In this document: one piece after another, positions 12,140 through 56,705 of the stretch
How the letters are laid out: the number at the start of each line of letters is the position of its first letter
Numbering within the stretch: position 1 is the first letter of the stretch
Assembly (NCBI GenBank): GCA_949358305.1
Contig: OX442314.1
Location: 27,032,001 to 27,096,000 of the forward strand
Reading direction: 5' to 3'
Length of the DNA: 64,000 nt
Origin: Strigamia acuminata
Lineage: Eukaryota
Notes under the pieces: generated by a model
Seen by the model: only the letters and a program-made list of their open reading frames with translations
The model's database searches: none
Told to the model about the DNA's origin: nothing
Program-made: the position numbers and the translations under genes

Positions 12140-13725
12140 TGTGACGATTGACTTGGCGAGATACAAATTGCTTAACAGTTAACGTAGGAACTCGTGTGAA
12201 AGTGTAAAAGTACGGAGGCTTGTGATTTCTCAAATCATATGACAGTTTATTACAAGTCGGGAATTATATAAAACCTATGCCTACAAATGGCTAAATAACT
12301 TAGGTTAAATATACAATGGGTTGGCAAAAGCCCTGAAATAATATCACTTGCGGTTTTCAGTCTCGTAATAAGAATGTGTAACTTTCTTATTACGGTGACG
12401 TAAAAGATGTCGTCTGAGTATGGTTCGAGCTTCCAAATGGTCCTGGATTGATTCTAAAATGGTGTGTAATGGTTAGGCTTGGGTGTGTTATATCCGAGAG
12501 GTGCGGTTGTCTTTGGCACAATCATCACACGTATAATTATTGTTAATAATTATACAGCGCGATCATAAGAATGATGAAACAATCGGAATAAATATTCATG
12601 TAAATTCCATTGAATTAAACATGAGTATTGTGTTCACAAAGCTGGATAAATAACTATAAAAATAAAGAAATAATTAAAATAGCGCCGAGCTATTTTTTGC
12701 CCCGAGTGCAATCAACATTTAAGTCAGACTTAAATGTTCCATCAAACCAACAACGAAATGAATCGAAGTATTTCGCAGGAAAGGTTATCCATCGCCGGGA
12801 AATTACTCCACTCGGTTCTGGCTGGCGGGAGAGTAACCGGGAAATTACTCCGCGTCGATTACTCTGATAATGCGTCTGTGAAATATAAATACTCCACTCT
12901 AGATTCTACATTACCAATGCGTCTGTGAATTTTACTCCACTCTAGATTCTACATTCTACAACGGAATGTTGGCATGAAGCTGGAGGGAGTGCGTCTGTGG
13001 GTTGTACCCCACTCTAGATACTACACTTAAATGTGTCTGTGAATTACTCACTCTAGTTACTACATTTCTACAACGGAATGTTGGCATGAAGAGGCGGGCA
13101 GTGTGTCTGTGAGTCTTCTACCCACTCTAGATACTTACACTAAATACAAAGTATTTCTACAACGGATTGTCGGAACGCAGAGAAGTATAATATGTGCTCA
13201 AGTAATATCAGTATCAAACAAAAACAGAACAAGAGCGAGCTATATCCGTTTTGCAGGGGGATATATACTCGGTGAGGAGAATAGCTGTTCAGTGATCCAA
13301 TGGGATCACTGGGCAGTCAAATCCATCCAATCCCAGATCATAGGAAGTGGATACTCAGGACATAGTCTTCTACTAGGTCCACTACAGGAACTGGATACGC
13401 AGGGCACACTTTGGATTAAGTCCCTTTGACTATAATCCAAAAGGAGTCCAACTCACAGTGGGTGATGAAGGGTGACTTCACCAGGTGTAAAGTTTGCACA
13501 TAATTCAATAGAATTATGTGACAAATAAATCAACTAGTATTTAAACATCCAAAAAGTATTCAAAAGTGTCCAAAGTTGCAGTGGAATAAAATATAAATAG
13601 TAATTTATATTTTATTCACTCAAAAATTGTCGAAATTTGAAATTACCGCTAAAACGCATCAGCGCCATCTATTGGTGAAATAATCGTCCTATATTATCAA
13701 AGTGTATGACAGTGTAACCGTCACA
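12140..13725 (-). repeat. 3' LTR of element A (1586 bp)
   Basis: Direct repeat of 38488-39132 + 53102-54042; adjacent PPT AAGGGGGACT on the minus strand. Confidence 0.95.
12868..13141 (-). repeat. Array of five bulged-hairpin units in the A/B LTR (also in the other three A/B LTR copies)
   Basis: Plus-strand units RTGYGTCTGTG-n7-14-CACTCTAGWTWCT(T)ACAY at ~12870, 12917, 12989, 13031, 13101. Confidence 0.8.
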
Positions 13726-14388
13726 AGTCCCCCTTAAATATATGTTAATTCCATTGAATTTACATACTATTTACTCATATCTTGAGGATCAAGATCACAC
13801 TGTCATCTAGGAAGTTCGAGCTGTAATCCTTGGTAAGTAAAAACCTTTATTTTATATCTTAATAGTATAAATAAAGAGTATTTCTTAATCAAATGCTTCA
13901 AAAAATATTTATTCGGGTTATAAAACTTCCAATTATCAATAATAACTTCCATCTCTCTTTACAGGTGGACTTACAACTGCATTAAGAAAAGGCGATAACT
14001 TAAACTAACATCAAACTCTTGTACCAAACAAATGATTAATAAAATTTAACAATTATTTTCACAAAACTTAACTTCTCACTGGAAATATAATGATTTGCAA
14101 AATAACACTTTACACGTTAAAATTCAAGTATTAAAATTAGTATTTTTATAAACAAACTCACATTGACTCGTAATCAAATTTTAACGAAATTGTTAATTTA
14201 AATATTAAAGATCTTTGAATCATTCACAAAAAACGGCATAAAATACACCTGAACCTGAACCTGACTCAATCTTTGTTTCATCTCGGGTTGGGAATGAAGA
14301 TGGAAGAATTGAACTCGCTACCTCTGGTCTTGCCCTTAAAAGGGGAAATGTTGGGAAAGTAGCGGATCCCGACATCGTTGACGCTTTT

Positions 14389-16044
14389 TTAGTCCAACTC
14401 TTCATCCTCAATGAATCCTTCCATGGACGTAACAACTTCCGAGGTGGCTGCGGGTGGAGAGTTAAGTTGAATAGTTACCAATTCCGGTACTTCGTCCGGT
14501 TCAACGTCATGGTTCAGTGGATCCAGGAGCATTCTGTGTTGCTCCTCGGTGAATACTTCCAGGGGATCAGGCCCTCCTAACGGAATGGTGTTAGCGCTGG
14601 TTGGCTCGGAAAAAACCAAGTGATGGTCGGGTAAGCCAGAGTGCCATCCCTCACGAATCAACGGGTGAGCTGCTGCTGAGACCTGCTGCAAAATCTTACA
14701 CCAAATAAAAGAGCGAGTTTGAAAAGATTCCGGCCGAGATGGATGAAAAATCCATTGGATCACGGCCAGCGGCACGCTTAAATCTGGAATTCGGTCATTC
14801 GAAATAGACACACTAATACGCTTAGCTGCTTCCAATAAAATTGGGAAATAATGTTCCACTTCCGCCTTAGTTTGTTCTGTGAGTGACATGCTTGGTCTCG
14901 GCATATATGGATGAACCAGTAAAATGACCGGTTCAGCAGCGTCGCTTACTTCTGGGAGCGGAATAGTCGCTACAATCATGTTGTTAGCCGATGTTCCCTC
15001 TGGAAAAGCGGCGGTTTGCAGACCAGAATCGGATGCCACCGGCGGAGAATCAGACGCAGTAACTGACGTTGGAAGGTTTTCCGCCGAGACAACTGGAATT
15101 CCATCAATCGCAGGGGTGGGAGTTTCCGGCTCGCGTTGTGGCTCCGTAAATCCTCCTCGTGGAGTCGAGGTGCTGGACATTTGCGCCGGGTCTACATAAA
15201 TAGCCTGCTCCGGGCCCTGATGGATGAGGCCACATTCGCGGCACATCGCCCAATTGCGTGCTGTTGGCGTACTTAGCCCTTTGACGATGAAAGGAAGAAT
15301 TTCCTCGTTCCACATGCTCGATATGGCAACGCGCTTACCACCGTGACAGTTCACGCAGACTACGGCGTGAATGCCGGACAGAAGGGAGGATAACCACCCG
15401 CATCCTGCGCATAAAGGGCAGAACATGAGCTTCGACTTCGGCATGATGTTGGTTCCCAAGGCGGCAGCTTCCATATCGCGAAATACATGTTCTCGCCGTT
15501 GCTTCCGATAACTCGGTAAGTTGAGCTCCGATAATGAGCGAGCTTGCGATGTTGGGCGGGTCAACGCTTCGGATGAAGATGCCAACGTGGACTTGGTGGG
15601 TCCCTTGGTTTTGCCTGTCTTGCCTCGACTAGCGGTATCGCGAGGATTTCGTGGTCGGGCAAACTGTCTGCTGGTAGTCTGAGGTGGGGCTTCTTCATAA
15701 GATTCTTCTTCTTGTGAGAAGTCGTCTTGGCGCCGTCTCCTTGAAGCAGAACGGGAGTATTGTGACGAGTCGTCAGAAAAATCCCAATTCGGAGTCTCGT
15801 GGGGCGCATCATAGGTTACGACACGCTGACTAGCTTGACGGCCTCTGGAAGGACGCGAGTCGGTCGGGCTAACACCCATGGCGGTCCTAATTCGTGGTGG
15901 TACGAGATCCGGATTATCTCGGGCCCAGTTGGCGACGAGCTCGGGGTCAGAGGAGGGATTAACAAAGCGATAATCCGTCTCTTCCGACTTTTCTGGATCC
16001 CAATGCACGTACTGTCGCTTGCTAGCACGACCTCGGCGACTCAT
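14389..16044 (-). CDS. Element A ORF3: 551-aa uncharacterised Cys/His-domain protein in the env position
   Basis: ATG at 16044, 5 nt after candidate acceptor TTTTCTTGAAG; homologous to ORF3 of B and C; no signal peptide or TM seen. Confidence 0.85.
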   Translation of the reverse strand: MSRRGRASKRQYVHWDPEKSEETDYRFVNPSSDPELVANWARDNPDLVPPRIRTAMGVSPTDSRPSRGRQASQRVVTYDAPHETPNWDFSDDSSQYSRSASRRRRQDDFSQEEESYEEAPPQTTSRQFARPRNPRDTASRGKTGKTKGPTKSTLASSSEALTRPTSQARSLSELNLPSYRKQRREHVFRDMEAAALGTNIMPKSKLMFCPLCAGCGWLSSLLSGIHAVVCVNCHGGKRVAISSMWNEEILPFIVKGLSTPTARNWAMCRECGLIHQGPEQAIYVDPAQMSSTSTPRGGFTEPQREPETPTPAIDGIPVVSAENLPTSVTASDSPPVASDSGLQTAAFPEGTSANNMIVATIPLPEVSDAAEPVILLVHPYMPRPSMSLTEQTKAEVEHYFPILLEAAKRISVSISNDRIPDLSVPLAVIQWIFHPSRPESFQTRSFIWCKILQQVSAAAHPLIREGWHSGLPDHHLVFSEPTSANTIPLGGPDPLEVFTEEQHRMLLDPLNHDVEPDEVPELVTIQLNSPPAATSEVVTSMEGFIEDEELD

Positions 16045-17155
16045 TGCATCTTCAAGAAAAATATAAATTTTATTTGAGAACATGAATCAAACCGTCGGTA
16101 ATTAATTTAATTTCAAATTAAATTAATTGTCGACCAACAACTGGATTAATTTCACAATTAATTCTTAAGTTCCTTTTGTTAGCGGGTTTCCTTCATTTGT
16201 TGAATAATTATTAAAATTAATAATTATTCTTGACTCGGTAGATAATTTCATCTTATCTTTTAAAACAATATCGTTGACAAAATATTCAAATTAGTGTTTA
16301 TTAAATAAAATAAACCTAATTTTTGCATCTAAACGACATAATAACTAAAAAACCTGTCAAAATATTGAAAAATATTTTTGCAATATTTTTAGTATCTGAC
16401 AATATACATGATTTTTAACTGTACGAATAACTCTATAATTTGTCCGAGTAAAAATCTATCACCGACATCTGGTGGCGTTTGTTATTATCATACACGTGAC
16501 TTGTTAACACCAATTTCAAAGGAATTTTAAGAGACATTTTATGTTCATAAAATAAACACTTACTAACTAGGTGGAGTCCTAGAAGGGTATATTTGGCTAG
16601 TTTAACGTCTAGCTTCACGTATTTGCGAGGGCTGCCCGATTCCGGCGACGTTGGCCGATAAAAACGTTGTGCGGCGCGTGCGAATTCTAAGTCTGCCGTA
16701 ATGAACGCTTAACCAAAATAAATGTTGTCAATTAATGTCAAAATATTATAAATTTTGACAAAATATTGCTTAAATATTTACCGGGAATTCACTTAGTGAG
16801 TTCGTGAAAGGCTTACTCGCGATTTGTCCACGAGATGGTTTCGATAATCAACGTCGTGTCGATAATTTCTGAATTTGAACTGATATTCGTCAAATGAAAA
16901 AATCAGTAAAATAAACGATAAGTGTTCAAAATCATCTAGATTTTAACTCACTAAATTTCAGCGAAAATCCGTTAAAGCGTCGAAGAGTTGAGAATAATCC
17001 TTGGTTTCAGTCCAGTGTAAAACTTGGTGAACAAGTGAGTGATAATCTCAGACCAGGGGTTAAGGGGAGTTTCGAGGAGTAATTTGATTGGTTTGTAATT
17101 ACTCATCTCGAAGTTTCTATTAACCCAAAGGGGGAAACATAGTTTCAAGTAAATG

Positions 17156-18745
17156 TGTGACGATTACCTTCTGGAGATAGCAATTGCTAAACTAAAGTGT
17201 GAACTATCTGTGTGAAAATGTAAAATATGCAAACCTGATGTTTTCTCAAAGCATATAACATTTATTCCGGTTTGAACCTTATATAAATACTATGCCTACA
17301 AGTGGCTAAAATGACGATAAGTTAAACTATACAGTTATTTGGCAAAAGCCCTGAAATAATATCATTTGAAGGCTTCAGTCATGCAATAAGAATTTGTAAC
17401 GGTCTTATTGCTGTGACGTAAAAGATGTCATCTATGAATGGCTTTGGCTTCTAAATGGTCCGGGGTTTGGTTCTAAAAGGCGTGTAAATGGTTAGGCTGG
17501 GTGGGTTATATCCGAGAGGTGCGGTTGACTTTTCTGTATCGTCACACACATCGCATCGCAGATAATTATTGTAATCAATAATTATTGCGAGATGTAACAA
17601 TGTGAGAATAAATATTCATATTAATTCTATGGAAGTAATCATGATATTTTAGAGTCACAAACTTAACTAAAACTATGAAAATAAGTAAAATATATTAAAA
17701 TAGCGCCGAGCTATTTTTTGCCCCGAGTGCAATCAACATCTAAGTTAGACTTAAATGTTCCGTCAAACCAATAACGAATTGAATCGAAATATCTCGCAGG
17801 AAAGGTTATCCATCGCCGGGAAATTACTCCACTCGGTCCTGGCTGGCGGGAGAGTAACCGGGAAATTACTCCGCGTCGATCACTCTGATAATGCGTCTGT
17901 GAAATATAAATACTCCACTCTAGATTCTACATTACCAATGCGTCTGTGAATTTTACTCCACTCTAGATTCTGCACTCTACAACGGAATGTTGGCATGAAG
18001 CTGGAGGGAGTGTGTCTGTGGGTTGTACCCCACTCTAGATACTACACTTAAATGTGTCTGTGAATTACTCACTCTAGTTACTACATTTCTACAACGGAAT
18101 GTTGGCATGAAGAGGCGGGCAGTGTGTCTGTGAGTCTTCTACCCACTCTAGATACTTACACTAAATACAAAGTATTTCTACAACGGATTGTCGGAACGCA
18201 GAGAAGTATAATATGTGCTCAAGTAATATCAGTATCAAACAAAAACAGAACAAGAGCGAGCTATATCCGTTTTACAGGGGGATATATACTCGGTGAGGAG
18301 AATAGCTGTTCAGTGATCCAATGGGATCACTGGGCAGTCAAATCCATCCAATCCCAGATCACAGGAAGTGGATACTCAGGACATAGTCTTCTACTAGGTC
18401 CACTACAGGAACTGGATACACAGGACACACTTTGGATTAAGTCCTTTTGACTATAATCCAAAAGGAGTCCAACTCACAGTGGGTGATGGGGGGTGACTTC
18501 ACCAGGTGTAGAGTTTGCACATAATTCAATAGAATTATGTGACAAATAAATCAACTAGTATTTAAACATCCAAAAGTATTTAAAAGTGTCTAAAGTTGCA
18601 GTGGAATAAAATATAAATAGTAATTTATATTTTATTCACTCAAAAATTGTCGAAATTTGAAATTACCGCTAAAACGTATCAGCGCCATCTATTGGTGAAG
18701 TAATCGTCCTATACTAACAAAGTGTATGACAGTGTAACCGTCACA
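17156..18745 (-). repeat. 3' LTR of element B
   Basis: Matches 29536-31125 with no difference noticed. Confidence 0.95.
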
Positions 18746-19402
18746 AGTCCCCCTTAAATATATGTTAATACCTGTATTAACATACTATTTATCCCGAATA
18801 TCTTGAGGATCAAGACCACACTGTCATCTATGGAACTGGAGCTGTAATCCTTGGTAAGTAAAAACCTTTATTTTATATCTTAATAGTATAAATAAAGCGT
18901 ATTTCTTAATCAAATGCTTCAAAAAATATTTATTAGGATTATAAAACTCTCAATTATTAATAATAATTCCAATCTCTCTTTACAGGTGGACTTACAACTG
19001 TATCAAGAAAAGGCGATAACTTAAACTAACATCAAACTCTTGTACCAAACAAATGATTAATAAAATTCAACAATTATTTTCACAAAACTTAACTTCTCAT
19101 TGGAAATATAATGATTTGCAAAATAACACTTTACACGTTAAAATTCAAGTATTAAAATTAGTATTCATACAAACAAACTCACATTGACTCGTAATCAAAT
19201 TTTAACAGAATTGTTAGTTTAAATATTAAAGATCTTTGAGATATTCACAAAAACGGCATAAAATACACCTGAACCTGACTAAATCTTTGTTTCATCTCGG
19301 GTCAAGAAAATGGAGATGGAGAAAATGGACTCGTTACTTCTGGTCTTGCCTTAAAAGGGAAGATATCGGGAAAGTAACGGATCCCGACATCGTTGACGCT
19401 TT

Positions 19403-21058
19403 CTAGTCCAACTCTTCATCCTCAATAAATCCTTCCATGGATGTGACAACTTCCGAGACGGCTGCGGGTGGAGAATTAAGTTGAATAGCTACCAATTCCG
19501 GTACTACATCGGGCTCAACGTCATGGGCCAGGGGATTCAGGAGCATTCTGTGTTGTTCCTCGGTGAATACTTCCAGGGGATCAGGCCCTCCTAACGGAAT
19601 GGTGTTAGCGCTGGTTGGCTCGGAGAAAACCAAGTGATGGTCGGGTAAGCCAGAGTGCCATCCCTCACGAATCAATGGGTGTGCTGCTGCTGAGACCTGT
19701 TGCAAAATCTTACACCAAATAAAAGAGCGGGTTTGAAAAGATTCCGGCCGGGATGGATGGAAAATCCATTGGATCACGGCCAGTGGCACGCTCAAATCTG
19801 GAATTCGGTCGTTTGAAATCGACACACTAATACGCTTAGCTGCTTCCAATAAAATTGGGAAATAATGTTCCACTTCCGCCTTAGTTTGCTCCGTGAGTGA
19901 CATGTCTGGTCTCGGCATATATGGGTGGACCAGTAAAATAACCGGTTCAGCAGCGTGGCTTACTTCTGGGAGCGGAATAGTCGCTACAATCATGTTGTTA
20001 GTCGATGTTCCCTCTGGAGAAGCGGCGGCTTGTGGACCAGAATCGGATGCAACCGGCGGAGAATCAGACGCAGTAACTGACGTTGGAAGGTTTTCCGCCG
20101 AGACAACTGGAGTTCCATCAATCGCAGGGGTGGGAGTTTCCGGCTCGCGTTGTGGCTCTGTAAATCCTCCTCGTGGAGTCGAGGTGCTGGACATTTGCGC
20201 CGGGTCTACATAAATAGCCTGCTCTGGGCCCTGGTGGATGAGGCCACATTCACGACACATCGCCCAATTGCGTGCTGTCGGCGTACTTAGCCCCTTGACG
20301 ATAAATGGAAGAATTTCTTCATTCCACATGCTGGATATGGCAACGCGCTTACCACCGTGACAGTTCACGCAGACTACGGCGTGAATGCCGGATAACAAGG
20401 ACGACAACCATCCGCATCCTGCGCATAATGGGCAGAACATAAGCTTCGATTTTGGCATGATGTTAGTGCCCAAGGCGGCAGCTTCCATATCTCGAAATAC
20501 ATGTTCTCTTCGCTGCTTACGGTAACTTGGCAAATTTAGCTCTGATATCGAGCGAGCCTGCGAGGTTGGGCGAGTCAACGCTTCGGATGAAGATGTCAGC
20601 GTGGACTTGGTGGGTCCTTTGGGCTTGCTGGTTTTGCCTCGACTAGCGGTATCGCGAGGATTTCGTGGTCGGGCAAACTGCCTGCTGGTGGTCTGAGGTG
20701 GAGCTTCTTCAACCGATTCTTCTTCTTGCGAGAAGTCATCTTGGCGCCGTCTCCGTGAAGCAGAACGGGAGTATTGTGACGAGTCGTCAGAAAAATCCCA
20801 ATTCGGAGTCTCGTGAGGCGCATCATAGGTTACGACGCGCTGACTAGCTTGACGGCCTCTGGAAGGACGCGAGTCGTTCGGACTAACGCCCATGGCGCTC
20901 CTAATTCGTGGCGGTACGAGATCCGGGTTATCACGGGCCCAGTTGGCGACGAGCTCGGGGTCAGAGGAGGGATTAACAAAGCGATAATCCGTCTCTTCCG
21001 ACTCTTCTGGATCCCAATGTACGTATTGTCGCTTGCTAGCACGACCTCGGCGACTCAT
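19403..21058 (-). CDS. Element B ORF3, 551 aa
   Basis: Nearly identical protein to A ORF3 despite many synonymous differences. Confidence 0.85.
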   Translation of the reverse strand: MSRRGRASKRQYVHWDPEESEETDYRFVNPSSDPELVANWARDNPDLVPPRIRSAMGVSPNDSRPSRGRQASQRVVTYDAPHETPNWDFSDDSSQYSRSASRRRRQDDFSQEEESVEEAPPQTTSRQFARPRNPRDTASRGKTSKPKGPTKSTLTSSSEALTRPTSQARSISELNLPSYRKQRREHVFRDMEAAALGTNIMPKSKLMFCPLCAGCGWLSSLLSGIHAVVCVNCHGGKRVAISSMWNEEILPFIVKGLSTPTARNWAMCRECGLIHQGPEQAIYVDPAQMSSTSTPRGGFTEPQREPETPTPAIDGTPVVSAENLPTSVTASDSPPVASDSGPQAAASPEGTSTNNMIVATIPLPEVSHAAEPVILLVHPYMPRPDMSLTEQTKAEVEHYFPILLEAAKRISVSISNDRIPDLSVPLAVIQWIFHPSRPESFQTRSFIWCKILQQVSAAAHPLIREGWHSGLPDHHLVFSEPTSANTIPLGGPDPLEVFTEEQHRMLLNPLAHDVEPDVVPELVAIQLNSPPAAVSEVVTSMEGFIEDEELD

Positions 21059-29515: not shown

Positions 29516-29533
29516 ATCTCGGTGGGACCTCCA
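29516..29533 (-). promoter_or_regulatory. Primer binding site of B, tRNA-Gln type
   Basis: TGGAGGTCCCACCGAGAT, 2 nt inside the 5' LTR. Confidence 0.85.
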
Positions 29534-29535
29534 CG

Positions 29536-31125: not shown

Positions 31126-31303
31126 AATGTTTACACGTAGATTAATTTAAATACAATCGGCCGTGTAAAAATAACTCAAACATTTGTTAGATTTTATTCA
31201 CACCAAAAAAAAATGTTTTTAATTAATAAAATTTAACAATCCTTCGTGAATATGATTGGAAATATTTATTTTAAAATAAAATATTTTCAATATATTGTGT
31301 TTT

Positions 31304-38467: not shown

Positions 38468-38485
38468 ATCTCGGTGGGACCTCCA
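38468..38485 (-). promoter_or_regulatory. Primer binding site of A, tRNA-Gln type
   Basis: TGGAGGTCCCACCGAGAT next to the 5' LTR. Confidence 0.85.
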
Positions 38486-38487
38486 CG

Positions 38488-39132
38488 TGTGACGATTGAC
38501 TTGGCGAGATACAAATTGCTTAACAGTTAACGTAGGAACTCGTGTGAAAGTGTAAAAGTACGGAGGCTTGTGATTTCTCAAATCATATGACAGTTTATTA
38601 CAAGTCGGGAATTATATAAAACCTATGCCTACAAATGGCTAAATAACTTAGGTTAAATATACAATGGGTTGGCAAAAGCCCTGAAATAATATCACTTGCG
38701 GTTTTCAGTCTCGTAATAAGAATGTGTAACTTTCTTATTACGGTGACGTAAAAGATGTCGTCTGAGTATGGTTCGAGCTTCCAAATGGTCCTGGATTGAT
38801 TCTAAAATGGTGTGTAATGGTTAGGCTTGGGTGTGTTATATCCGAGAGGTGCGGTTGTCTTTGGCACAATCATCACACGTATAATTATTGTTAATAATTA
38901 TACAGCGCGATCATAAGAATGATGAAACAATCGGAATAAATATTCATGTAAATTCCATTGAATTAAACATGAGTATTGTGTTCACAAAGCTGGATAAATA
39001 ACTATAAAAATAAAGAAATAATTAAAATAGCGCCGAGCTATTTTTTGCCCCGAGTGCAATCAACATTTAAGTCAGACTTAAATGTTCCATCAAACCAACA
39101 ACGAAATGAATCGAAGTATTTCGCAGGAAAGG
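38488..39132 (-). repeat. 5' LTR of element A, first part (split by C)
   Basis: Matches 12140-12784. Confidence 0.95.
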
Positions 39133-46800: not shown

Positions 46801-48179
46801 TAACCTTTGGTAAGGTCAAGAGACGTGAAATATTTTGCCTGATTTGTATTGTGGAGTAACAAATCAATACTTGGCATTTGTATGGCGTTAATTTCGGTGA
46901 TTGCATTCAACCACCGATAATCGATACATAAACGATAAGTACCATTTGGTTTGGCTACGATCACTGGATGACTTATGTAAGGTCCAGTAGCTCTTTCGAT
47001 CAAATTATCCGCTTCTAATTCTTCTACTAATTTAGTCATAATGGCTATTTTAGCAGGGTTATACATTCGAAATGGTTGTTTTTTCCACGTTACATCCTTT
47101 TTAAAGGTGATCTTATGCTTTATTATGTTAGTACATCCGACTTTATCTCTAAAGACGTTCTTAACACTAGCAATTACTTCGCGTAATTTACTTTTTTCCT
47201 CATCTGAACAGTCACAATCCTTTACCAGCAATTCTTCCCAATTATCTGGCGTGTGTGTGGCTGTTGCGTTGTCAGTCAACACTTGTACTCGAGCTAAATT
47301 ACAATTTAACTCGTCAGTTTCGTAGGGTGCAGTCCAGTCGGACTTGCTGTCGCAAGTAAATACAGCTCGTGCTGGATTTAAATTAATTTTGGTTCGGCGC
47401 ATAAAATTATGTCCGATAATTAATCCACACACATTATTATCCAAAATGATAAAATTTATTGGTGTGAATTCTGCTCCATCTGCCCATTGTACACACAAAG
47501 TAATTTGTCCTAGTGGAATATGAGTAACTCCAACTGCACAAACTCTCATGTGTTTTGGACAATCTTGTATGAAATCGGGAGATGCACAAGTTTTACTTAG
47601 TAATTGCAACCCAATAAAACACTGTGTGGCTCCTGAGTCCATCAAAGCATTGTAGGTGAGTCCACCTATTGTAATTTTCATTCGGGGGTCGTCGATGTGA
47701 TTTCCCAATTTATTAATTCGTTCGATGCCATCTTTTCGTTTTAACTGATTCTCGTTAATGTAAGATTTTAATCTCGCAAATCTGGAGGATTTGGAGTCGG
47801 GATTCAAATTATCAATCATTGATTGTAAATTCTCGAATACTCCTCCACTAGAACTGGTGGATTCATCACGAATATTAAGGTTGGATGTATCTTGTATCAA
47901 TCTAGCTAAAGATTCGTCCCCCTTATCTAGAGAAAACAGGTCGTCGTGAAAATTCAAGAACGGGTTTGCTGTCTCCTCTGCCGAAAAGGGCGTATTTGAC
48001 GCGATTTTAAACTTATAATTCCAGTTCCTTTTCCGTGTCTTCCGGTTAGGACGAGCACGCTTAATTTCTTTATCTTGAATAGTTAAATTATCCAAAGTTT
48101 CGGAAAGTGCTTGTTCCAAGTCTGGTGGTAAAATTCCTTCGGAATTATTAATAGGGGGCTCGAGGACCCCCGCCACTAG
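43884..48179 (-). CDS. pol: Element C Pol (PR-RT-RNaseH-IN), via -1 frameshift
   Basis: LMDSGA, YLDD, TDAS, HHCC, DDE, RDGPW; slippery site at 48179-48185. Confidence 0.95.
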   Translation of the reverse strand, partial: LVAGVLEPPINNSEGILPPDLEQALSETLDNLTIQDKEIKRARPNRKTRKRNWNYKFKIASNTPFSAEETANPFLNFHDDLFSLDKGDESLARLIQDTSNLNIRDESTSSSGGVFENLQSMIDNLNPDSKSSRFARLKSYINENQLKRKDGIERINKLGNHIDDPRMKITIGGLTYNALMDSGATQCFIGLQLLSKTCASPDFIQDCPKHMRVCAVGVTHIPLGQITLCVQWADGAEFTPINFIILDNNVCGLIIGHNFMRRTKINLNPARAVFTCDSKSDWTAPYETDELNCNLARVQVLTDNATATHTPDNWEELLVKDCDCSDEEKSKLREVIASVKNVFRDKVGCTNIIKHKITFKKDVTWKKQPFRMYNPAKIAIMTKLVEELEADNLIERATGPYISHPVIVAKPNGTYRLCIDYRWLNAITEINAIQMPSIDLLLHNTNQAKYFTSLDLTKGYYQVEMDEEDRQKTAFYTPKGNYQFVRMPFGLCNAPCTFQFLMERVMGEALYKHALVYLDDVIIFSTTWEKHLEHIKDVLERLDKANLSVNKEKSKFGKTTLKFLGHLITPTGLAPDPDKIVSVRKYPTPKNSKDIQRFHGLSNFFRKFIPEHAKIARPLTSMMHDKAVFEWGEEQEKAFETIKNILCDETQVLLMPDMMKPFVILTDASHDGLGSVLCQDVEFFDEGKREMIMTPRPVAYASRVLRGAEVRYSTPELECLAVVWAVDKFRPYIEYTTFTLESDAEALKWLMGTPEPSGRFGRWAIKLQCGAFKIKYRRGTQNQVADAFSRAPLEIEDIPENDYCEPIEITQFWPEWDGNREIIRRNNREDCQFLTNVQLHFDYSKLLYNTLEKGEKMDEATEETLFSALTEVLKEVPPTREEIIKAQLADKECRIIIDHLKRDEIEQRKFKKTKEWMKAVQGYQLDFQEENGNEMLIYFKPTFEEELNDSGNGFKAVIPPSLVRRVLFACHGHPLSGHAGMSKTLERAKLIYYWPKMNKDTRNYVRSCIHCQQYKPCQHKKHRASYTPHNMSYPWEVICIDLMGPKPTGRSQYRFVLVIIDQCTKWVELFPLSKASSESIVNRLGEVIHRWGYPKKIVSDNGSQFISTIYEEFCKKHNIRMAHVSPYHAQANPTERANRDIKIMLALYSDIHSHWPRFLNEFAFASRTAKSEATGATPFLLNTGRNVPLPFDPRIIQHANAFDKNNPEEYVYNLLGILRRAHQEMHLRIQANYERHDKIHRNKFHICEYTVGDLVWKATHILSNKEKGITKGFAEKRDGPWEITEVLPGGAYKLRKLVDGSIEPSINTDDLSPYIPSYPIETWTLDQKSGRVENHPNPDWMNESSTVNNSSELNNQELGNNSANMELDPEEVTTPASKESDIVVNNPKHDYNLRKRKRSCELSQLQPRTKRISTTDQECTTDFIHLIQDRR

Positions 48180-50512
48180 TTTTTTGGAACCGGTGGGGTT
48201 TCAGTAATTGGTGCCGTAGTAGCGTTCTTCGGGTCTAAGAATTTACTAAATAAATCCGACACTGTCTTACTTATCGTTGTTTGCATACTGTTATTCATAT
48301 CAGTTTTTAACTCTTCCATTTTTTGATCAATAGCTTCGGCAGTTACCCAATTTTGGCGTGGTCGCTTAAATTCGTTCGGCTGCTGATTAGCGCTATTGTT
48401 ATTGGAATTATTATTTCCAGGGAAATTATTGCTAAATTTTCGCTTTGGAAGCAGAGGACATTCTCTTTTGAAATGACCTGGTTGTTTACAATGAAAACAT
48501 TTCCCTGTCTGATTTTCCGACATGGCACATAATAAATTATCCATTGATACATTATTCTCTGTCAACTCATTGACTTCCATTATTTCTTCTTCCGGCTCTA
48601 TTTCCATCATTTGAGTGGATCGAGCCGAAGGTCTCATATTTTTGGTATCTTTAGAATACTTCTGGTTGTTAGATACCACTTTATCAATTTCCTTGGAATT
48701 CTCTGTACGGATTCTTTGGGGTTCAAAGAGTGCTCTATTCGTTCGTACGAATTGAAAGATTTTGTCTACTGACTCGCTCCTGTACAGATTTCGATCGATT
48801 AATCTATTGTAACTCGTCCAATTCAGGTTGTCGAAAAGTGTGGCAACATTTCCTCTTTCGGAATACGATCCTTGGGCTTTAGTGAATCTGACTAGAAATT
48901 CATATAAAGGTTCATCGTCTCCTTGGATTACTTTTCGTAAATTTCGGAGTCGAGTAGTTGGAATCATGTCGAATTCTTCACGAAATAATTCTACGAAGGT
49001 TTCCCAGTTGGTAAACTTGGTTTTATTCTCGTCATACCATTGTTGGGCTAATCCGGACAAATAGGTGGGAATACCTTGATTAACCATTTCGTCCAGAGTT
49101 AATCCCTTTGAAATAGCTACAGTTTTAGCTACTGATAAAAATTTATCTATATCCTCCTGTTTTCCATCGAAAACTGGAAGGTCTTGTCCTTTGAAAAAGA
49201 CTTTACTGGGTCCTGGATTATTAGATCGTTGCGGCCCAGTTGTTTGTTGAGTTTGAACGAATGTATCTATTCGACTATCCAATTGTTTTTGGAATTGGGC
49301 GGCCATATTTTGTTGCATTTTCAAAATATAGTCAAATGAAATATTAGTTCCGTCAGAGGGAAGTCTAGTTTCTGTAGAACTTTCTGCCGAGAAATGTGAG
49401 CTTGGAATGTCATCGGTAGATGCACGTGACGGATTTGTCTGGTCTCGGGGTTCACTACCATGGCTAGCCCGAGTGGACGCCGCGAGATTTAGCCGGATGC
49501 TTTCCTGTAAGGTTTTCTCCCGCTTGCGTTGATTGTCTTCAATTCTGTTCACTTCCGCCCACTTCTTATTGTATTGATCTTGTTGCTTTTGGAACTTTTC
49601 ATCGTGTTCCTGTCGCCATTGAGCCCGTAATTGATTAATTAGAATTTTATCGTTTTTGTCTATCGACTTACGAACTTCGTTTTGATTGACAACTTCTCCT
49701 TCAAGTTTATCTTGGCGAATCTTTTCGTCGTTAATCTGTTTTTGATTAATTGCTTCCAGCCTAATTCGTTCCTTTTCCACTTCGTCTAATCTCAATTGTT
49801 CTTGTCGAGTTTGAGGTAAGACTGGAGATGGTAGTGGAGATAATTTCCGTCGAATGGCGGATTTATTGCCTCGCCCTCTAGGGGTTTGTTTGGCAAAATG
49901 TCTCGTCCCATTCTCCGTATAAATATGTGGATTGGGTTGCTTTTTAGCATTTTCAGGTTGAAAAGTTGAAAAATTGGATCCTCCTACCTCCGAAATACTT
50001 GGAGTATTGTGGTAACTGGCGTTGCGGGAGTGAGGAGTTCTATTTCCTAAACTGGACTGATCAAGCGATTCCTTGCTTGATGTTCGAAATAATTCTCGAA
50101 TATCTTGGTTACGAACCGACGGAGTTTTAATTCTTGCTTGATCCCCCAACTTACGTTGTGGAGTTTTAGATCGTGATCGGTTTTCTTCAGACAGATCTCT
50201 TGGCGACGGGATTGGGTCCTTTCCAGAATTATGGTTCGCCGAACTCTCCTTCGAAAGTTCTGCTCGTTTTTCCGGAGTTGGATTAATACGTATGTTACGT
50301 AACGCCCGCTTCGTCACAAATTCAGAAGCTTCGATTATGGTTTTGAACTGAGTTCTATCTAGTTCGTAATGCGTACAAAACTGTGTGAGTTCATCGGGAA
50401 TCATTTCCGTTTGGTCACAAAGTTTTACATAACTTGAATCCAAGCTAACTATTTCTTCTACGGCCTTTTCTTCAGCCACTTTTTCTTCGTTAGGAAGATT
50501 GTTTGGATCCAT
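48176..50512 (-). CDS. gag: Element C Gag, 778 aa
   Basis: LPVFDG, AQQWY, CCHC knuckle CFHCKQPGHFKREC. Confidence 0.92.
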   Translation of the reverse strand: MDPNNLPNEEKVAEEKAVEEIVSLDSSYVKLCDQTEMIPDELTQFCTHYELDRTQFKTIIEASEFVTKRALRNIRINPTPEKRAELSKESSANHNSGKDPIPSPRDLSEENRSRSKTPQRKLGDQARIKTPSVRNQDIRELFRTSSKESLDQSSLGNRTPHSRNASYHNTPSISEVGGSNFSTFQPENAKKQPNPHIYTENGTRHFAKQTPRGRGNKSAIRRKLSPLPSPVLPQTRQEQLRLDEVEKERIRLEAINQKQINDEKIRQDKLEGEVVNQNEVRKSIDKNDKILINQLRAQWRQEHDEKFQKQQDQYNKKWAEVNRIEDNQRKREKTLQESIRLNLAASTRASHGSEPRDQTNPSRASTDDIPSSHFSAESSTETRLPSDGTNISFDYILKMQQNMAAQFQKQLDSRIDTFVQTQQTTGPQRSNNPGPSKVFFKGQDLPVFDGKQEDIDKFLSVAKTVAISKGLTLDEMVNQGIPTYLSGLAQQWYDENKTKFTNWETFVELFREEFDMIPTTRLRNLRKVIQGDDEPLYEFLVRFTKAQGSYSERGNVATLFDNLNWTSYNRLIDRNLYRSESVDKIFQFVRTNRALFEPQRIRTENSKEIDKVVSNNQKYSKDTKNMRPSARSTQMMEIEPEEEIMEVNELTENNVSMDNLLCAMSENQTGKCFHCKQPGHFKRECPLLPKRKFSNNFPGNNNSNNNSANQQPNEFKRPRQNWVTAEAIDQKMEELKTDMNNSMQTTISKTVSDLFSKFLDPKNATTAPITETPPVPKN

Positions 50513-51321: not shown

Positions 51322-51339
51322 ATCTCGGTGGGACCTCCA
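51322..51339 (-). promoter_or_regulatory. Primer binding site of C, tRNA-Gln type
   Basis: Same 18-mer as in A and B. Confidence 0.85.
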
Positions 51340-51341
51340 CG

Positions 51342-53097
51342 TGTGACGGTGACGACCACAACTCCCATTTAACAATGGTACCGGGAAGAGATCGCAATAA
51401 ATAAACAGTGAATACAATACGAGATAAATACAAGACAGTTTATTGTTGGCAAACAATATGGATGAGCTAAATTATACATAGGACTAATGCCGACATTTGG
51501 CAAGTTAACTGACTATTAAACTATACAAAGCATAGGCCAATTGGTCCTAAAATAATATCATTACGTGTCTGGGATAAGGGAGCGGTTTCCCCATCGCTCG
51601 ACCTGGTTTACAGATGTCATCTAAGTCGGATGGCTGTGTCCTGGAGTCCGATATGGCTTCGCTGGTTTCCTTGGTTCGCTGTGTAAATTATCACACGTCG
51701 ATAAATCGAATGATCTGAGCATTGCGGTTGACTTTGTCTGCACCGCCACAACTTTGGGAGGATATTGGTGTAAGTAAATGTATTCATTTTACTTATCAAT
51801 ATTCCGCTTATGAATTATATTTAATTCATATCGTTGTGAATTCTTATTTAGATATTTTTGTGGATAAGTTGTCATCAACTTATCAGTTACATTTGCGTCT
51901 TTGATGTAATCGTGATCGTAATTAAGTCTTCTGACTTGGTTAATCAACTTGTCGCCAAGTTAATATTTAGCTGTTATAAATAAAATGAAGATTAGGCTTC
52001 CCGTCGCAACACACAATTGCCGTCGAAAGAAAATATACGCCTTGCAATGCAGAACGGTATCAAGCGTCCCCTGCGTCGCGACACGGTCGTTCGTCTGGCG
52101 ATTGACGGTATCACGTACACAGGAGTCGATAGCTCGCGGCTCCGCACAGCAGTATAATCTCTCGCGGTACTAATAATAGACCGACTACTTTGGCATCGAA
52201 TACCATGAGAATCAGCTTGCCAAACACTTGGTGCTACTCGTGGTTACTGTAAAACAGACTGCTTTGGCACCATCCGGTGAAGGAACTAATTCTCAACAGC
52301 AACGATGCTACTTGCGGTAACGGAATACGTTCATACCGAGAAAGACCACATGGTCCTGTCCGGAGGATACTGAATTGCACAACGGCGGGTTCTCCTTCGG
52401 CGTCGCAACCGTAAACTGTAACATTTATGCAACATAATGATCCCAGCACTTCGACTTCAATTGCCGGCGGTGGCATGATTCTGTAGAATCATGCAACGGT
52501 TCTTTGTGAATAAATCAACAAAGAACCAAAAGGTTTTTTTACGTGAACAACGAATCATATTTCTTAAGTAACAATACCAAACAGAAAATAATCAAACAGA
52601 GCTGCCGGATGGCCGGTTGTTTGGGTTTATATAACCTGACTGGATTAGAGATTAATCCAATCAACCAATTGGAACATGGGTTCCACGAATCCCTCCAATC
52701 CCGTATCGCCGGAAGTGGATACGGAGGAGCAATATGCTAATTCACACCACAACCGGAACTGGATACCCAGGACCGGAAATGGATCCACCAATCACATCGA
52801 TCGGTTGATCGATGGATTATCAAATCTCCATTTCTGCTGAACTAGAGATTCCCATCACTTAGTGTGAACAATAATTATTAATATATATTTATATTAATCC
52901 TAATAAAGTGTCGTTTCATACAAATAAATATATTCTTATATTTATTTACCAGTTTTCTTAACTCGCAATTCGAATTTACCGCTGAATTATAATCGCGCCA
53001 TCTAGTGGCGACTCGGAGCATTGACAAATGCGGGTTTCGCAAAAAACACTTAAAATTCGGCCGTGTTATTAATAAATAGCACTTATAAACCGTCATA
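51342..53097 (-). repeat. 5' LTR of element C
   Basis: Direct repeat of 39133-40888. Confidence 0.95.
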
Positions 53098-53101
53098 AAG
53101 G

Positions 53102-54042
53102 TTATCCATCGCCGGGAAATTACTCCACTCGGTTCTGGCTGGCGGGAGAGTAACCGGGAAATTACTCCGCGTCGATTACTCTGATAATGCGTCTGTGAAA
53201 TATAAATACTCCACTCTAGATTCTACATTACCAATGCGTCTGTGAATTTTACTCCACTCTAGATTCTACATTCTACAACGGAATGTTGGCATGAAGCTGG
53301 AGGGAGTGCGTCTGTGGGTTGTACCCCACTCTAGATACTACACTTAAATGTGTCTGTGAATTACTCACTCTAGTTACTACATTTCTACAACGGAATGTTG
53401 GCATGAAGAGGCGGGCAGTGTGTCTGTGAGTCTTCTACCCACTCTAGATACTTACACTAAATACAAAGTATTTCTACAACGGATTGTCGGAACGCAGAGA
53501 AGTATAATATGTGCTCAAGTAATATCAGTATCAAACAAAAACAGAACAAGAGCGAGCTATATCCGTTTTGCAGGGGGATATATACTCGGTGAGGAGAATA
53601 GCTGTTCAGTGATCCAATGGGATCACTGGGCAGTCAAATCCATCCAATCCCAGATCATAGGAAGTGGATACTCAGGACATAGTCTTCTACTAGGTCCACT
53701 ACAGGAACTGGATACGCAGGGCACACTTTGGATTAAGTCCCTTTGACTATAATCCAAAAGGAGTCCAACTCACAGTGGGTGATGAAGGGTGACTTCACCA
53801 GGTGTAAAGTTTGCACATAATTCAATAGAATTATGTGACAAATAAATCAACTAGTATTTAAACATCCAAAAAGTATTCAAAAGTGTCCAAAGTTGCAGTG
53901 GAATAAAATATAAATAGTAATTTATATTTTATTCACTCAAAAATTGTCGAAATTTGAAATTACCGCTAAAACGCATCAGCGCCATCTATTGGTGAAATAA
54001 TCGTCCTATATTATCAAAGTGTATGACAGTGTAACCGTCACA
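53102..54042 (-). repeat. 5' LTR of element A, second part
   Basis: Matches 12785-13725. Confidence 0.95.
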
Positions 54043-55627
54043 ACATTCTATTGTTACTGTCGCTTTAGAAGTAAATGAATATTGTTGTAACAGAGTTGTT
54101 AAATAAAGAAACATTTCCATTCGGGTCAGTGCCGCTCCAATGCATTGCCGCTTACCTACATAAATAAAATTGTGGTCACAGATAATACAACTGTAATTTG
54201 GAAGTTATGTTAGCTTACCTATGGAAAATGGAATCAACTCTTCCATGTATTTAACTTTATAATCTTCAGTAAGAAAGCGTTCTGGTTTGAAACACTCTGG
54301 TTCTGGAAACAAGTTTGGATCGTTGTGAACTGCATATGCATTGCCGTATATGGTTGTCGCCTTTGAAATAAAATACCCAGCTAGTGTTGCATCTTCACTT
54401 GCACTACAGAAAATTACAGCTTATTGAAAGAATTCAACTTGACGTTTACGAATGTAAAGTTTGTTTCAGTGTAAGTACGGCACTCCTCCTATTGGCATAT
54501 GGGGTATACAGCATAACAATATTATAACCTAGGTATAACTCTGAGAACTATACTCTGGCTCATCGTAAGAAGCAGACCAGTTCCTATTGGCCGAGCCTAT
54601 TCACTGGTGTAGGGCTACATAAAAGTAGGCCAAACAGCAAACGTTCGAGTTACGGGAAGCCATTTTGTGTCCAGACGAAACAATCAAACATAACCAATGG
54701 GGATGTTCTATATCCCACTAGCCCGTAGAAGGTGTGCCATACTTACAATAAAACAGACTTTAGGTGTATTTATTAAGTCTTTGTATGAAAGCGACTATAC
54801 TCACGTGTGAGGAGAGAGTAAAGGTACGAGCGAGATCATCCTGCTTATTTCCAGTAAGGTCGCTTGAGTGTACGGCATTAACCTTTGATCTGACATTGAT
54901 GGTTGTCTATCCTTTCCAATCACTTCGTCAATTTCCGTTTGCACTTTTGCTTGCACATGAGGGTACTTTGTCATATACAAAATAGCCCATTCCATACTAG
55001 TGCTTGATGTGTCACTTCCAGCAATAAACAATTCGCTCAAAACCTTTGCCAGTTTTTTTTCTAGAAATGGTAATGGATAAATAATACTGTATGCTCAGTT
55101 TCAAATAGTCAACTTGGATTGCATGTTCTCTGATTAGTGGATTCTTTGAGTGAATATAGTTTAATTTATACAAGTAACCGCATGAATGTTTACCATTAAA
55201 GTTGGCTGGATTTGTATTCAGTTTCTTAGCTTCAGCTCTCCAAACATCAATAAAACTTTGTTGGTTGTTTATGCCTTTGTGAATTTGGTCGTATTTTTGA
55301 ACTTCATCTAGGATCTTTCTGTACAGCAAAGTTCCTTTATCTCTGTAGAAATAAATTTTAGAAAAAAATCTTTAAAGTGCAGTTAAGTTTAATGGCGTTT
55401 GGCACTGACACTGGTTTAGCGATTCCAAGAGCATTGACTATCCATTGTGGCAGAAATTGCGACCATTGATCTATTCCTATCGAATTTATAAATTCGTCGG
55501 ATAACTTTAAGAGTTGTTGAAAATCTTTATTCTCGTAGTCCATTCTTTCTCCATACATGATGGTGCAACTGACATTAGTAATACTTTTTTTAAGCATTTC
55601 TCGGAAGTAAGATGGTTTTCCGTCCAA
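54043..55627 (-). pseudogene. Cytochrome P450 gene 2 (paralog of gene 1), exons 4(part)-8(part), disrupted by LTR insertions
   Basis: Exons 55410-55627 (cut by D), 55194-55342, 54805-55060, 54219-54403, 54043-54155 (cut by A). Exons 5-7 have the same lengths as in gene 1; AGSDTS, EISR, FKPERF, FSIGKRQCIG present. Confidence 0.9.
54470..54747. mobile_element. Possible small MITE in the intron of P450 gene 2
   Basis: 14-bp imperfect inverted ends TGTAAGTACGGCAC / GTGCCATACTTACA; no clear TSD. Confidence 0.4.
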
Positions 55628-56705
55628 TGTGTGGTGACCTCAAATATTCCTAGTTGAGTGCGCACCATATTTCCAAATTGTCTTATAAACATATTCAACA
55701 AGCTTATATGTTTTGTTTCAATGTAAATTGAAATAAAACATACATTAATAAAATATAAAACAAGACACAATATTACCCAAATAATATTGTGTTTTGCAGC
55801 AAGTTTTGGCCCAGCAACAGCGTCAACCAATCGCGCTGCAGCGTGCATTGCTTTGATGATGCTGCTAGGCGTGTGCCTGGGCGGAGCATCCCTTCCCCTC
55901 GCGCGTGCCCGGCTCAATTGTTGCACACGACCCAAAGGCGGCCGTGTGTGATCTTTGTGCAACTCGTCATCTGCGCAGCTTTTCTGAGCAGATTTAGAAG
56001 TGAGCCAAACGGTTTTGGCCCACTCTTCCCGCATTCTTGATTCTGCTTCCAAACCATTCACATCTGTGTCAAACTTATGCCAACCATTGCTAAGTGTGAT
56101 CTGTGATATCTGGAAGAGTTGAGATTCATTGCTGGTCTGTACCAACTGTACAGAATAGCGCCCTTCTGTTTGAATTACTACACGTAATTTAAGCCATTTC
56201 TGTGTGTGAATTGACATTGAGCTTGCTCTGTCAATTTGAAGGCTTTGTGTCGAGTTTAACTCCGCAAAGCGAACTGTGTTAAGACGGATTGTTACGTCGA
56301 GCTTGCTCCGTAATAATCAAACCGCTGTGTGCAAGACGTGTTCTCGTGTTGAGCTTGCTCCGCGAGGATTTTGGTATATTTTAGCAACGTATTTTAGCGT
56401 CGAGTTTACTCCGCTAAAATCCCGCGCTCACACGACGCCATCGACGCCATTTTGGAGCCAACGGTCAACTGTGAGTGTCCAAGTACGAAGAGAAACCAGA
56501 TCGACCCAGTCATTACACTTATTATTTCGCATTATATTCGGGTGTATTTAAAACGATTAAAACAATCTAATTTTTCCTTTACTCTGTGTAAAATCATTCC
56601 CCTAGACAACCATTTGGCCACAGAGTAGAAGTCCTGTACGGCATCTCACCGACGATTGCTTATTAAATTTATATAATTTAATAAGTAAAAACCCGGATCG
56701 CCGCA
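55628..56705 (+). repeat. Inferred 5' LTR of element D (~1.08 kb)
   Basis: Bounded by the insertion point and the PBS; the second LTR is outside the window, so boundaries are unverified. Confidence 0.75.
56209..56420 (+). repeat. Array of five bulged stem-loops in the D LTR
   Basis: Units 56209-56236, 56242-56270, 56287-56318, 56341-56368, 56391-56420: variable complementary arms around TY-GAG(CTTG/TTTA/TTTAA)CTC. Confidence 0.85.

What the first reader, a model, noticed from the sequence alone, without database searches (positions are those of the whole stretch)
12140..56705. Hypothesis: 'complex' gypsy elements with a trans-regulator plus LTR RNA response array
Combines three observations: an apparently spliced Cys-rich and Arg-rich accessory ORF, very long (1.1-1.8 kb) hairpin-rich LTRs, and tandem bulged hairpins in the presumed R region. 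Known: complex retroviruses use spliced accessory proteins with RNA elements (Tat/TAR, Rev/RRE, Rex/RxRE); I do not know of this in Ty3/gypsy elements. Caveats: no interaction is shown, C has ORF3 but no equally clear array, and D's post-pol region is outside the window.
Basis: inference. Interest (0 to 1): 0.82.

Follow-up and report, generated by a model that had tools for sequence, protein, structure and literature searches.

The report
Gypsy third gene and LTR hairpins
Young jumping genes nested here carry an extra, strongly conserved gene for a non-envelope, likely zinc-binding protein and rows of RNA hairpins in their end repeats, which together would resemble the control switches of complex retroviruses, but no link between the protein and the hairpins has been shown.

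Summary
The parts are real; the link is unshown. Three complete young Ty3/gypsy elements (A, B, C) each carry an intact third ORF of 551-558 aa after pol. It is under strong purifying selection (A/B dN/dS 0.079, like pol at 0.074), has six conserved cysteines and no signal or membrane segment. Its only relatives found are three centipede (Strigamia) gene models. Splicing is only predicted: no RNA run is listed. A/B LTRs hold five covarying two-bulge hairpins (89 of 90 cells paired). The LTR of a fourth, distant element D holds five different hairpins (59 of 60 cells paired, 0 of 500 shuffles as high) with a U-pyrimidine bulge laid out like the TAR arginine pocket. Against the pairing: C has ORF3 but neither array; D has the best array but is 34% identical in Pol and its post-pol region is off-window; the ORF3 families share a U3 DNA motif pair instead. 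The claimed lack of precedent is wrong: CERV of C. elegans Cer1 is a spliced Cys-rich gypsy export protein. Best reading: a likely nuclear self-regulator, CERV/Rex-like (0.33). New variant of a known kind.

The parts
12140..13726 (-). Element A, 3' LTR (1587 nt)
   Evidence: Self-BLAST: 100% identical to the two halves of A's 5' LTR; 4-bp target duplication
12867..13143 (-). A/B-type array of five two-bulge hairpins (A 3' LTR copy)
   Evidence: Covariance model hits; pair counts; genomic variants
14389..16044 (-). ORF3 of A, 551 aa: basic N-terminal half, Cys core, helical domain, acidic tail
17155..18746 (-). Element B, 3' LTR (1592 nt); hairpin array at 17888-18164
   Evidence: 100% identical to 29535-31126
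19403..21058 (-). ORF3 of B, 551 aa, 96% identical to A's
22362..28660 (-). gag and pol of B
   Evidence: Pfam: gag, zinc knuckle, protease, RT, RNase H, integrase in gypsy order
29535..31126 (-). Element B, 5' LTR; hairpin array at 30268-30544. B is inserted in A's pol-ORF3 spacer
31304..37632 (-). gag and pol of A
   Evidence: A gag scanned; A pol is 98% identical to B pol
38488..39133 (-). Element A, 5' LTR, downstream part (split by insertion of C)
39132..40888 (-). Element C, 3' LTR (1757 nt)
   Evidence: 99.94% identical to 51341-53097
41396..43072 (-). ORF3 of C, 558 aa, 28% identical to A's by alignment
   Evidence: (E 2e-33)
43884..50512 (-). gag and pol of C (Pol 63% identical to A/B)
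51341..53097 (-). Element C, 5' LTR
51990..52415 (-). Predicted long branched RNA rod in C's presumed R region (no covariation test possible)
   Evidence: z -4.1 sense, -2.0 antisense; window chosen after seeing the fold
52711..52766 (-). U3 pair of 12-nt motifs, 44 nt apart, shared by A, B and C LTRs at the same place (C 5' copy shown)
   Evidence: 12 of 12 window matches lie in the six A/B/C LTR copies, none in D; 73% identity over 85 nt between A and C
53097..54043 (-). Element A, 5' LTR, upstream part; hairpin array at 53184-53460
55630..56705 (+). Element D, 5' LTR (1076 nt; ends read from terminal repeats and the primer site, second LTR off-window)
   Evidence: Sequence
56207..56420 (+). 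D-type array of five hairpins: variable 8-10 bp lower stem, 2-nt U-pyrimidine bulge, invariant GAG/CUC upper stem, 4-5 nt loop
56798..64000 (+). gag (in-frame TAG at 58451-58453) and pol of D, running off the window

Best explanation
These are young Ty3/gypsy elements whose conserved third gene encodes a non-envelope, likely zinc-binding protein that likely acts in the nucleus to raise the output of its own family's full-length RNA, likely by recognising family-specific RNA structure in the long presumed R region, in the manner of CERV or Rex. Shown: the ORF, its purifying selection, its lack of envelope features, and selection on the hairpin structures of A/B and D. Inferred: expression from a spliced mRNA (acceptor-like AG just before the ATG), an R region of about 1 kb (TATA-like box and AATAAA positions), nuclear location (basic clusters), and zinc binding (CxxC pairs). 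Untested: any binding of ORF3 to RNA, and any effect on splicing, 3'-end choice or export.
For: dN/dS A versus B is 0.079 over 551 codons, 0.008 in the Cys core and 0.032 in the helical domain, against 0.074 for pol; 6 of the 7 listed C-ORF3 variants are synonymous (these 7 come from the 40 rows shown, 179 more were not shown). No membrane segment is conserved and no Pfam family passes its cut-off. A basic helix with an invariant Arg-Arg precedes the first four cysteines in 6 of 6 aligned sequences. The acceptor-like AG sits 5 nt before the ATG in A, B and C and is the best of 48 (A, part of spacer) and of 50 (C) spacer AGs. All three ORF3 elements have structured RNA downstream of the TATA-like box: the array in A/B, the predicted rod in C. 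The array is the best-kept part of the LTR between A and B (97-100% at LTR positions 401-900, against 72-82% from 1001 on). Precedent in the same superfamily, with its C-terminal ORF at the same genome position: CERV.
Against: The A/B hairpin is absent from C (0 hits outside the four A/B LTRs at E below 0.9) although the ORF3 core is conserved. The strongest array is in D, which is 34% identical in Pol and has no known ORF3. What A/B and C share in the LTR is DNA-like: a U3 motif pair and a CTCF-like box. There is no conserved export-signal pattern (0 matches in A, 3 in C) and no clear arginine-rich motif; Gag of A and ORF1 of D are more Arg-rich. In B the acceptor is weaker (88th percentile) and not among the top six; the spacers also hold strong donors and C has a TATA-like box about 60 nt before the ATG, so an internal promoter is possible. 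The whole A array region is not more stable than shuffles (z -0.89) and only part of its hairpins form in the MFE. CERV's cysteine spacing differs, so the precedent is an analogy only.
Confidence: 0.33

Rival explanations
1. The hairpins dock Gag or a host protein (packaging, translation control, export or localisation), and ORF3 does an unrelated job such as countering a host defence.
For: Arrays do not track ORF3 across the four elements. Gag of A begins with 7 Arg in 15 residues and D's ORF1 has 7 Arg in 15. The 5' leaders are about 2 kb with 19 (B) and 30 (C) ATGs before gag, so some RNA-based translation control is likely needed. Host-bound export elements exist in simple retroviruses (PMC10309623 section 15).
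Against: An element in R would also sit on any spliced ORF3 mRNA, which fits a packaging signal poorly (general knowledge). C's Gag is not Arg-rich (4 in 15). No binding data either way.
Confidence: 0.3
2. ORF3 is a DNA-level activator or anti-silencing factor acting on U3, like foamy virus Tas, HTLV Tax or plant VANC; the shared 12-nt motif pair is its target.
For: The motif pair occurs twice in each of the six A/B/C LTR copies, 44 nt apart and at the same distance from the TATA-like box, nowhere else in the window and not in D. ORF3 ends in an acidic tail (net -16 and -10 over the last 60 residues), the usual make-up of an activation domain (recalled). Strigamia methylates transposons (PMC6673714 passages). 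VANC targets form tandem repeats that vary between related elements (PMC5735166 abstract).
Against: Only two families, related by descent; the motif resembles a host ETS site (recalled), so a host factor may explain it. No CpG depletion (observed/expected 0.89-1.29 in the elements) and no excess of CpG transitions between A and B, which gives no sign of methylation pressure. This reading leaves the covarying hairpins unexplained.
Confidence: 0.27
3. The arrays are neutral tandem duplications of a self-complementary unit, and ORF3 is captured cargo.
For: Array unit number varies among genomic copies (joints skipping 75, 113 and 153 nt). Units are related by duplication, which inflates covariation scores, and G-U pairs tolerate transitions by default.
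Against: D's five lower stems share only 1-5 of 8 letters pairwise yet all pair, 6 of 12 pairs change on both sides, and wobble pairs fall on the sense strand only (6 G-U and 0 A-C cells in D; 8 and 0 in A/B). ORF3 is under selection as strong as pol's.
Confidence: 0.05

Closest known systems
CERV of C. elegans Cer1 (Ty3/gypsy; PMC10309623: abstract, passages, sections 9 and 15 read)
   Same: [quoted passage not shown]
   Different: CERV shares exons with gag, has closely spaced Cys (193, 195, 200, 269) and a G-protein-like domain, and is said to lack homologues outside nematodes. ORF3 has three CxxC pairs and its own ATG. No RNA response element is named for CERV in the parts read ('response element' occurs 0 times).
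HIV-1 Tat/TAR and 7SK arginine-sandwich motifs (PMC6189040: passages read)
   Same: D's hairpins have a bulged U followed by G-C and A-U pairs, the layout that allows the U23:A27-U38 triple and Arg contact with G26 in TAR; 7SK uses 2-nt pyrimidine bulges for the same motif.
   Different: Five tandem copies several hundred nt into the LTR rather than one hairpin at the 5' end; 4-5 nt loop rather than the hexaloop; no Rfam match; no cognate protein known for D; ORF3 has no Tat-like arginine-rich motif.
HTLV Rex/RxRE and HIV Rev/RRE (recalled; Rev summarised)
   Same: Structured RNA in a long R region plus a subgenomic regulator; C's predicted branched rod is RRE-like in shape.
   Different: ORF3 is about five times larger, has no conserved export-signal pattern, and nothing shows binding.
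Plant Retand elements with TRP28 ORFs (PMC11963269: abstract read)
   Same: [quoted passage not shown]
   Different: [quoted passage not shown]
Strigamia maritima gene models T1IMA5, T1IH97, T1IU31
   Same: Same ORF3 core (E 8e-27, 3e-24, 5e-6); two are joined to gypsy pol pieces 40-63% identical to C Pol.
   Different: Unannotated as an accessory gene; their LTRs could not be fetched.

Membership tests
Ty3/gypsy LTR retrotransposon | gag, then protease-RT-RNase H-integrase order, LTRs, primer site, polypurine tract, target duplication | tested here: met
   (A, B, C complete; D 5' part only)
Envelope-bearing gypsy (errantivirus-type) | ORF3 with signal peptide, membrane anchor and fusion-protein homology | tested here: not met
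   Basic N-terminus, acidic C-terminus, highest hydropathy window 1.55 (A, in the Cys core) and 0.95 (C); no env family
CERV family | Sequence homology: shared gag exons, closely spaced Cys loop, G-like domain | tested here: inconclusive
   CERV sequence was not on hand; cysteine spacing from the paper differs; the profile search returned no nematode protein among 4 hits
CERV/Rev/Rex-type regulator | Made from a spliced mRNA | tested here: inconclusive
   Acceptor-like AG 5 nt before ATG in 3 of 3; no RNA holder listed; no matching joint in the two contig sets, which behave as DNA
CERV/Rev/Rex-type regulator | Arginine-rich RNA-binding motif and leucine-rich export signal (Rev/Rex) | tested here: not met
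   At most 5-6 Arg per 15 residues; export-signal pattern in C only
CERV/Rev/Rex-type regulator | Binds a structured element of its own RNA and is needed for export of unspliced RNA | not testable with these tools
   Needs experiment
TAR-type element (D array) | Pyrimidine bulge after a Watson-Crick pair, followed by G-C and A-U pairs | tested here: met
   5 of 5 hairpins; definition from PMC6189040. Secondary-structure level only
TAR-type element (D array) | Single hairpin at the 5' end of the transcript with a hexaloop | tested here: not met
   Five copies at LTR positions 578-791 with 4-5 nt loops; start site unmapped; no Rfam TAR-type hit
TAR-type element (A/B array) | U bulge followed by G-C, A-U on the sense strand | tested here: not met
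   0 sense-strand matches at stem length 7 or more; bulges are purine-rich
DnaJ/Anti-TRAP-type zinc finger | Paired CxxCxGxG-type motifs folding round zinc | tested here: inconclusive
   Anti-TRAP matches 3 of 6 members, best E 0.019, below cut-off; Atlas neighbours at 0.87, lead only; models too poor
VANC/Tas/Tax-type DNA-level factor | Acts through repeated DNA motifs of its own element | not testable with these tools
   Candidate motif pair found; binding needs experiment

The most novel reading that the evidence does not exclude
Arthropod gypsy elements evolved protein-plus-RNA switches independently of retroviruses: each family pairs its own third-gene regulator with its own structured R element, and family D has arrived at a five-fold repeated TAR-like arginine pocket, read by an accessory protein encoded beyond the window.
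Probability: 0.2. Interest if true: 0.87.

Novelty: new variant of a known kind. Interest (0 to 1): 0.62.

Why it matters
ORF3 is a protein family with no curated match that is kept as strictly as the polymerase, so these elements need a function beyond Gag and Pol. The covarying LTR hairpin arrays, above all D's TAR-like set, give a defined RNA target where the one well-studied gypsy regulator (CERV) has none named in the parts I read. If protein and RNA work as a pair, the logic of complex retroviruses arose again in an arthropod retrotransposon and can be tested with small reporters. If not, there remain a new accessory protein family and a new class of LTR RNA element.

Tried and rejected
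No genome is held for this window, so D could not be extended and co-occurrence could not be tested. No RNA holder listed; the two listed runs (1 study, possibly the source of the window) are contig sets with even cover across C and no joint at the predicted acceptor: no evidence on expression or splicing. Word-based protein searches with ORF3 found nothing (0 of 7994 candidates; 0 of 4116). Locus searches found no relative: viral contigs, metagenome contigs. The fourth profile hit (P0007) is an unrelated repeat protein and was dropped. PDB sequence search: one chance-level hit, E 0.43. Atlas search with C residues 240-500: no usable hit. AlphaFold models were poor (mean pLDDT 34 and 39) and fold searches gave no match at E 0.001 or better; this says nothing about the fold. 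The wide structural search did not run, so that route is open. Rfam: nothing near a gathering score in the A LTR or in 51300-56800. D's ORF1 is not related to ORF3 (best E 0.21). The RT tree is a quick tree of 45 of 124 matched rows; A, B, C group with one unnamed protein (support 97), D is a long branch of unsure place, and no named clade could be assigned. Rejected: ORF3 as envelope; one shared hairpin type across families; CpG-decay evidence for methylation. The shuffle null for the D motif is biased because the motif was written from the units; I rely instead. Splice scores use approximate recalled frequencies, not ones trained on this host. No complex prediction was run.
Full report
Anatomy. 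Self-comparison and ORF listing show a nest of LTR retrotransposons. Element A (minus strand, 54043-12140) carries B (31126-17155) in its pol-ORF3 spacer and C (53097-39132) in its 5' LTR; each has a 4-bp target duplication. LTR pairs are 100% (A, B) and 99.94% (C) identical, so all three are young. D starts at 55630 on the plus strand and runs off the window. Domain order is gypsy-type. Pol identity is 98% for A/B, 63% for A/C and 34% for D against the others. The host is not given; the nearest named relatives are from the centipede Strigamia maritima, so a myriapod host is an inference.

The third gene. A, B and C each have an open ORF3 of 551, 551 and 558 aa. A and C align at E 2e-33, with conservation in a Cys core (three CxxC pairs) and a helical domain. 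Between A and B, dN/dS is 0.079 overall, 0.008 in the core, 0.032 in the helical domain and 1.1 in a 70-codon linker; pol is 0.074 and gag 0.32. There is no conserved membrane segment and no signal-like start, so it is not an envelope gene. No Pfam family passes its cut-off. A profile search of 1.84 billion representatives gave 4 hits; 3 are Strigamia gene models, 2 of them joined to gypsy pol pieces, and 1 is an unrelated repeat protein. The first four cysteines and a preceding Arg-Arg are invariant in 6 of 6 aligned rows. They resemble DnaJ/Anti-TRAP zinc fingers at lead level only. Structure prediction failed. The protein is basic in its first half and acidic at its end, but not especially Arg-rich.

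Splicing. An AG lies 5 nt before the ATG in all three. With approximate recalled matrices it scores at the 96th percentile of 3565 minus-strand AGs in A and C and the 88th in B; it is the best of 48 and of 50 spacer AGs in A and C but not among the top six in B. The spacers also contain strong donors, and C has a TATA-like box about 60 nt upstream. No RNA holder is listed. Splicing is therefore plausible and unshown.

The LTRs. In A, B and C a TATA-like box lies at LTR position 459-465 and the only AATAAA downstream of it lies about 105-110 nt before the LTR end, which implies an R region near 1 kb (inference). A and C share three short blocks: a box near the 5' end that looks like a CTCF site (name recalled), a U3 block of 85 nt at 73% identity, and a block before the AATAAA. 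The U3 block holds a 12-nt motif twice, 44 nt apart; all 12 window matches are in the six A/B/C LTR copies.

A/B array. Five units per LTR form a three-helix hairpin with two purine-rich bulges. Over 7 distinct units, 89 of 90 cells pair, 3 of 13 pairs change on both sides, and 2 of 500 shuffles reach the covariation score (related units inflate this). Of the variants among genomic copies that I mapped by hand, three fall in stems (12873, 12881, 12992) and all three keep the pair; they are transitions at G-U pairs, which keep pairing by default, so this is weak. Two fall in an inner loop, and four indels fall in the apical loop of the last unit; I did not map the other 11 of 16 substitutions or 7 of 11 indels, many of which come from one gapped contig. 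Unit number varies between copies. The region as a whole is no more stable than shuffles (z -0.89). A model of the unit finds 20 hits, 5 in each of the four A/B LTRs, and none in C or D.

D array. Five hairpins at 56207-56420 have lower stems of 8-10 bp that share only 1-5 of 8 letters pairwise, then a two-base U-pyrimidine bulge, an invariant GAG/CUC stem and a short loop. 59 of 60 cells pair, 6 of 12 pairs change on both sides, and 0 of 500 shuffles reach the covariation score; slid registers pair at 43-51%. All five form in the minimum-energy fold of the sense strand (z -2.5), and not all on the other strand. A model finds only these five as strong hits. Variable stems with a fixed bulge and upper stem are what a protein-docking RNA looks like. 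The bulged U followed by G-C and A-U matches the arginine-sandwich layout of TAR and 7SK as defined in PMC6189040 (passages). Position, copy number and loop differ from TAR, and Rfam has no match.

C. Neither model hits C. Its presumed R region folds into one long branched rod (z -4.1 sense, -2.0 antisense) that includes a degenerate 74-nt duplication. The window was chosen after seeing the fold and I could not test covariation.

Does ORF3 go with the arrays? The table is: A/B, ORF3 and array type 1; C, ORF3 and no array but a predicted rod; D, array type 2 and ORF3 unknown. No further loci could be fetched. A conserved protein core with unrelated RNA targets is possible if the variable basic half sets specificity, but nothing here shows it. 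The LTR feature that tracks ORF3 is the U3 motif pair, on two families only.

Mechanism. I commit, at 0.33, to a nuclear regulator made from a subgenomic mRNA that favours full-length RNA of its own family through R-region structure. It is close to two rivals: hairpins read by Gag or a host protein with ORF3 doing something else (0.30), and a DNA-level activator or anti-silencing factor on U3 (0.27). A neutral origin is unlikely (0.05).

Prior knowledge. CERV of C. elegans Cer1 is one: a spliced, Cys-rich nuclear protein needed for export of genomic RNA (PMC10309623; abstract, passages, sections 9 and 15; its supplementary alignments are images and were not seen, and they bear on the homology question). 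Plant Retand elements carry a conserved extra ORF of proposed regulatory role with tandem arrays (PMC11963269, abstract). Extra ORFs in LTR elements are reviewed in PMC7264820 (search listing only). VANC is the DNA-level precedent (PMC5735166, abstract). Strigamia methylates transposons and has a copia family with a captured methyl-binding domain (PMC6673714, passages). A recent survey of envelope-bearing gypsy elements does not mention centipedes or zinc fingers (PMC13524379, term search). I saw no report of this ORF3 family or of covarying LTR hairpin arrays in the listings; the library lacks most subscription papers and repeat databases were not searchable. Earlier scan notes show other gypsy third ORFs in other genomes (unchecked) and none on this one.

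Verdict. Observation partly confirmed, interpretation partly supported. New variant of a known kind, interest 0.62. The most surprising piece is D's covarying TAR-like array, which is also the piece that cannot yet be tied to any accessory protein.

Noticed in passing
window 39132-40888 and 51341-53097: Both LTRs of C begin with TA rather than TG; a plant precedent appears in a search listing (PMC3701649).
   Followed up: no
window 58451-58453 (+): D's gag is split by an in-frame TAG just after an Arg/His-rich stretch; it may be a broken copy or a read-through site.
   Followed up: no
gag ends of A (about 35581), C (about 48176) and D (about 59692): All three end gag on an A-AAA-AAC heptamer overlapping pol, a classic -1 frameshift site (name recalled).
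   Followed up: no
window 38470-38487, 29517-29534, 51323-51340 (-); 56708-56725 (+): A, B and C share one primer-binding site and D has another; from recall they fit tRNA-Gln and tRNA-Pro. No tRNA gene is in the window.
   Followed up: partly
LTRs of A and B, from LTR position about 1000: A and B LTRs are 94-100% identical in the first 1000 nt but 72-82% after, while coding regions are 94-98%: a likely recombinant LTR.
   Followed up: partly
window 53987, 53003, 43142 and LTR copies (-): A CTCF/YY1-like motif (names recalled) lies near the 5' end of A, B and C LTRs and once more 70 nt before C's ORF3 start.
   Followed up: no
window 13138 and 13051 (-), and the same places in the other A/B LTRs: The first two A/B hairpins contain two of the best splice-donor-like sites of the LTR, partly inside stems; the structure could mask a donor.
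   Followed up: partly
window 13165, 13076, 12964 (-); C LTR positions 599, 713, 775: A short motif resembling a Myb site (recalled) recurs three times downstream of the TATA-like box in both A and C; it is also common elsewhere in the window.
   Followed up: partly
window 40513-40756: Genomic copies of C differ in this U3 stretch (six joints skipping 108-202 nt), which suggests subfamily-specific enhancers.
   Followed up: no
window 40300-51400: LTR bins show 10-25 times the summed contig depth of internal bins, consistent with many solo LTRs, though summed depth is not a copy number.
   Followed up: no
window 9779-11332 (+): A 517-codon ORF with a BED zinc finger, likely a hAT-type transposase.
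   Followed up: no
window 648-4707 and 54043-55627: Cytochrome P450-like exon pieces flank the nest on both sides at 80-87% identity, so the elements sit in a tandem P450 cluster; 1088-1897 is a long inverted repeat.
   Followed up: no
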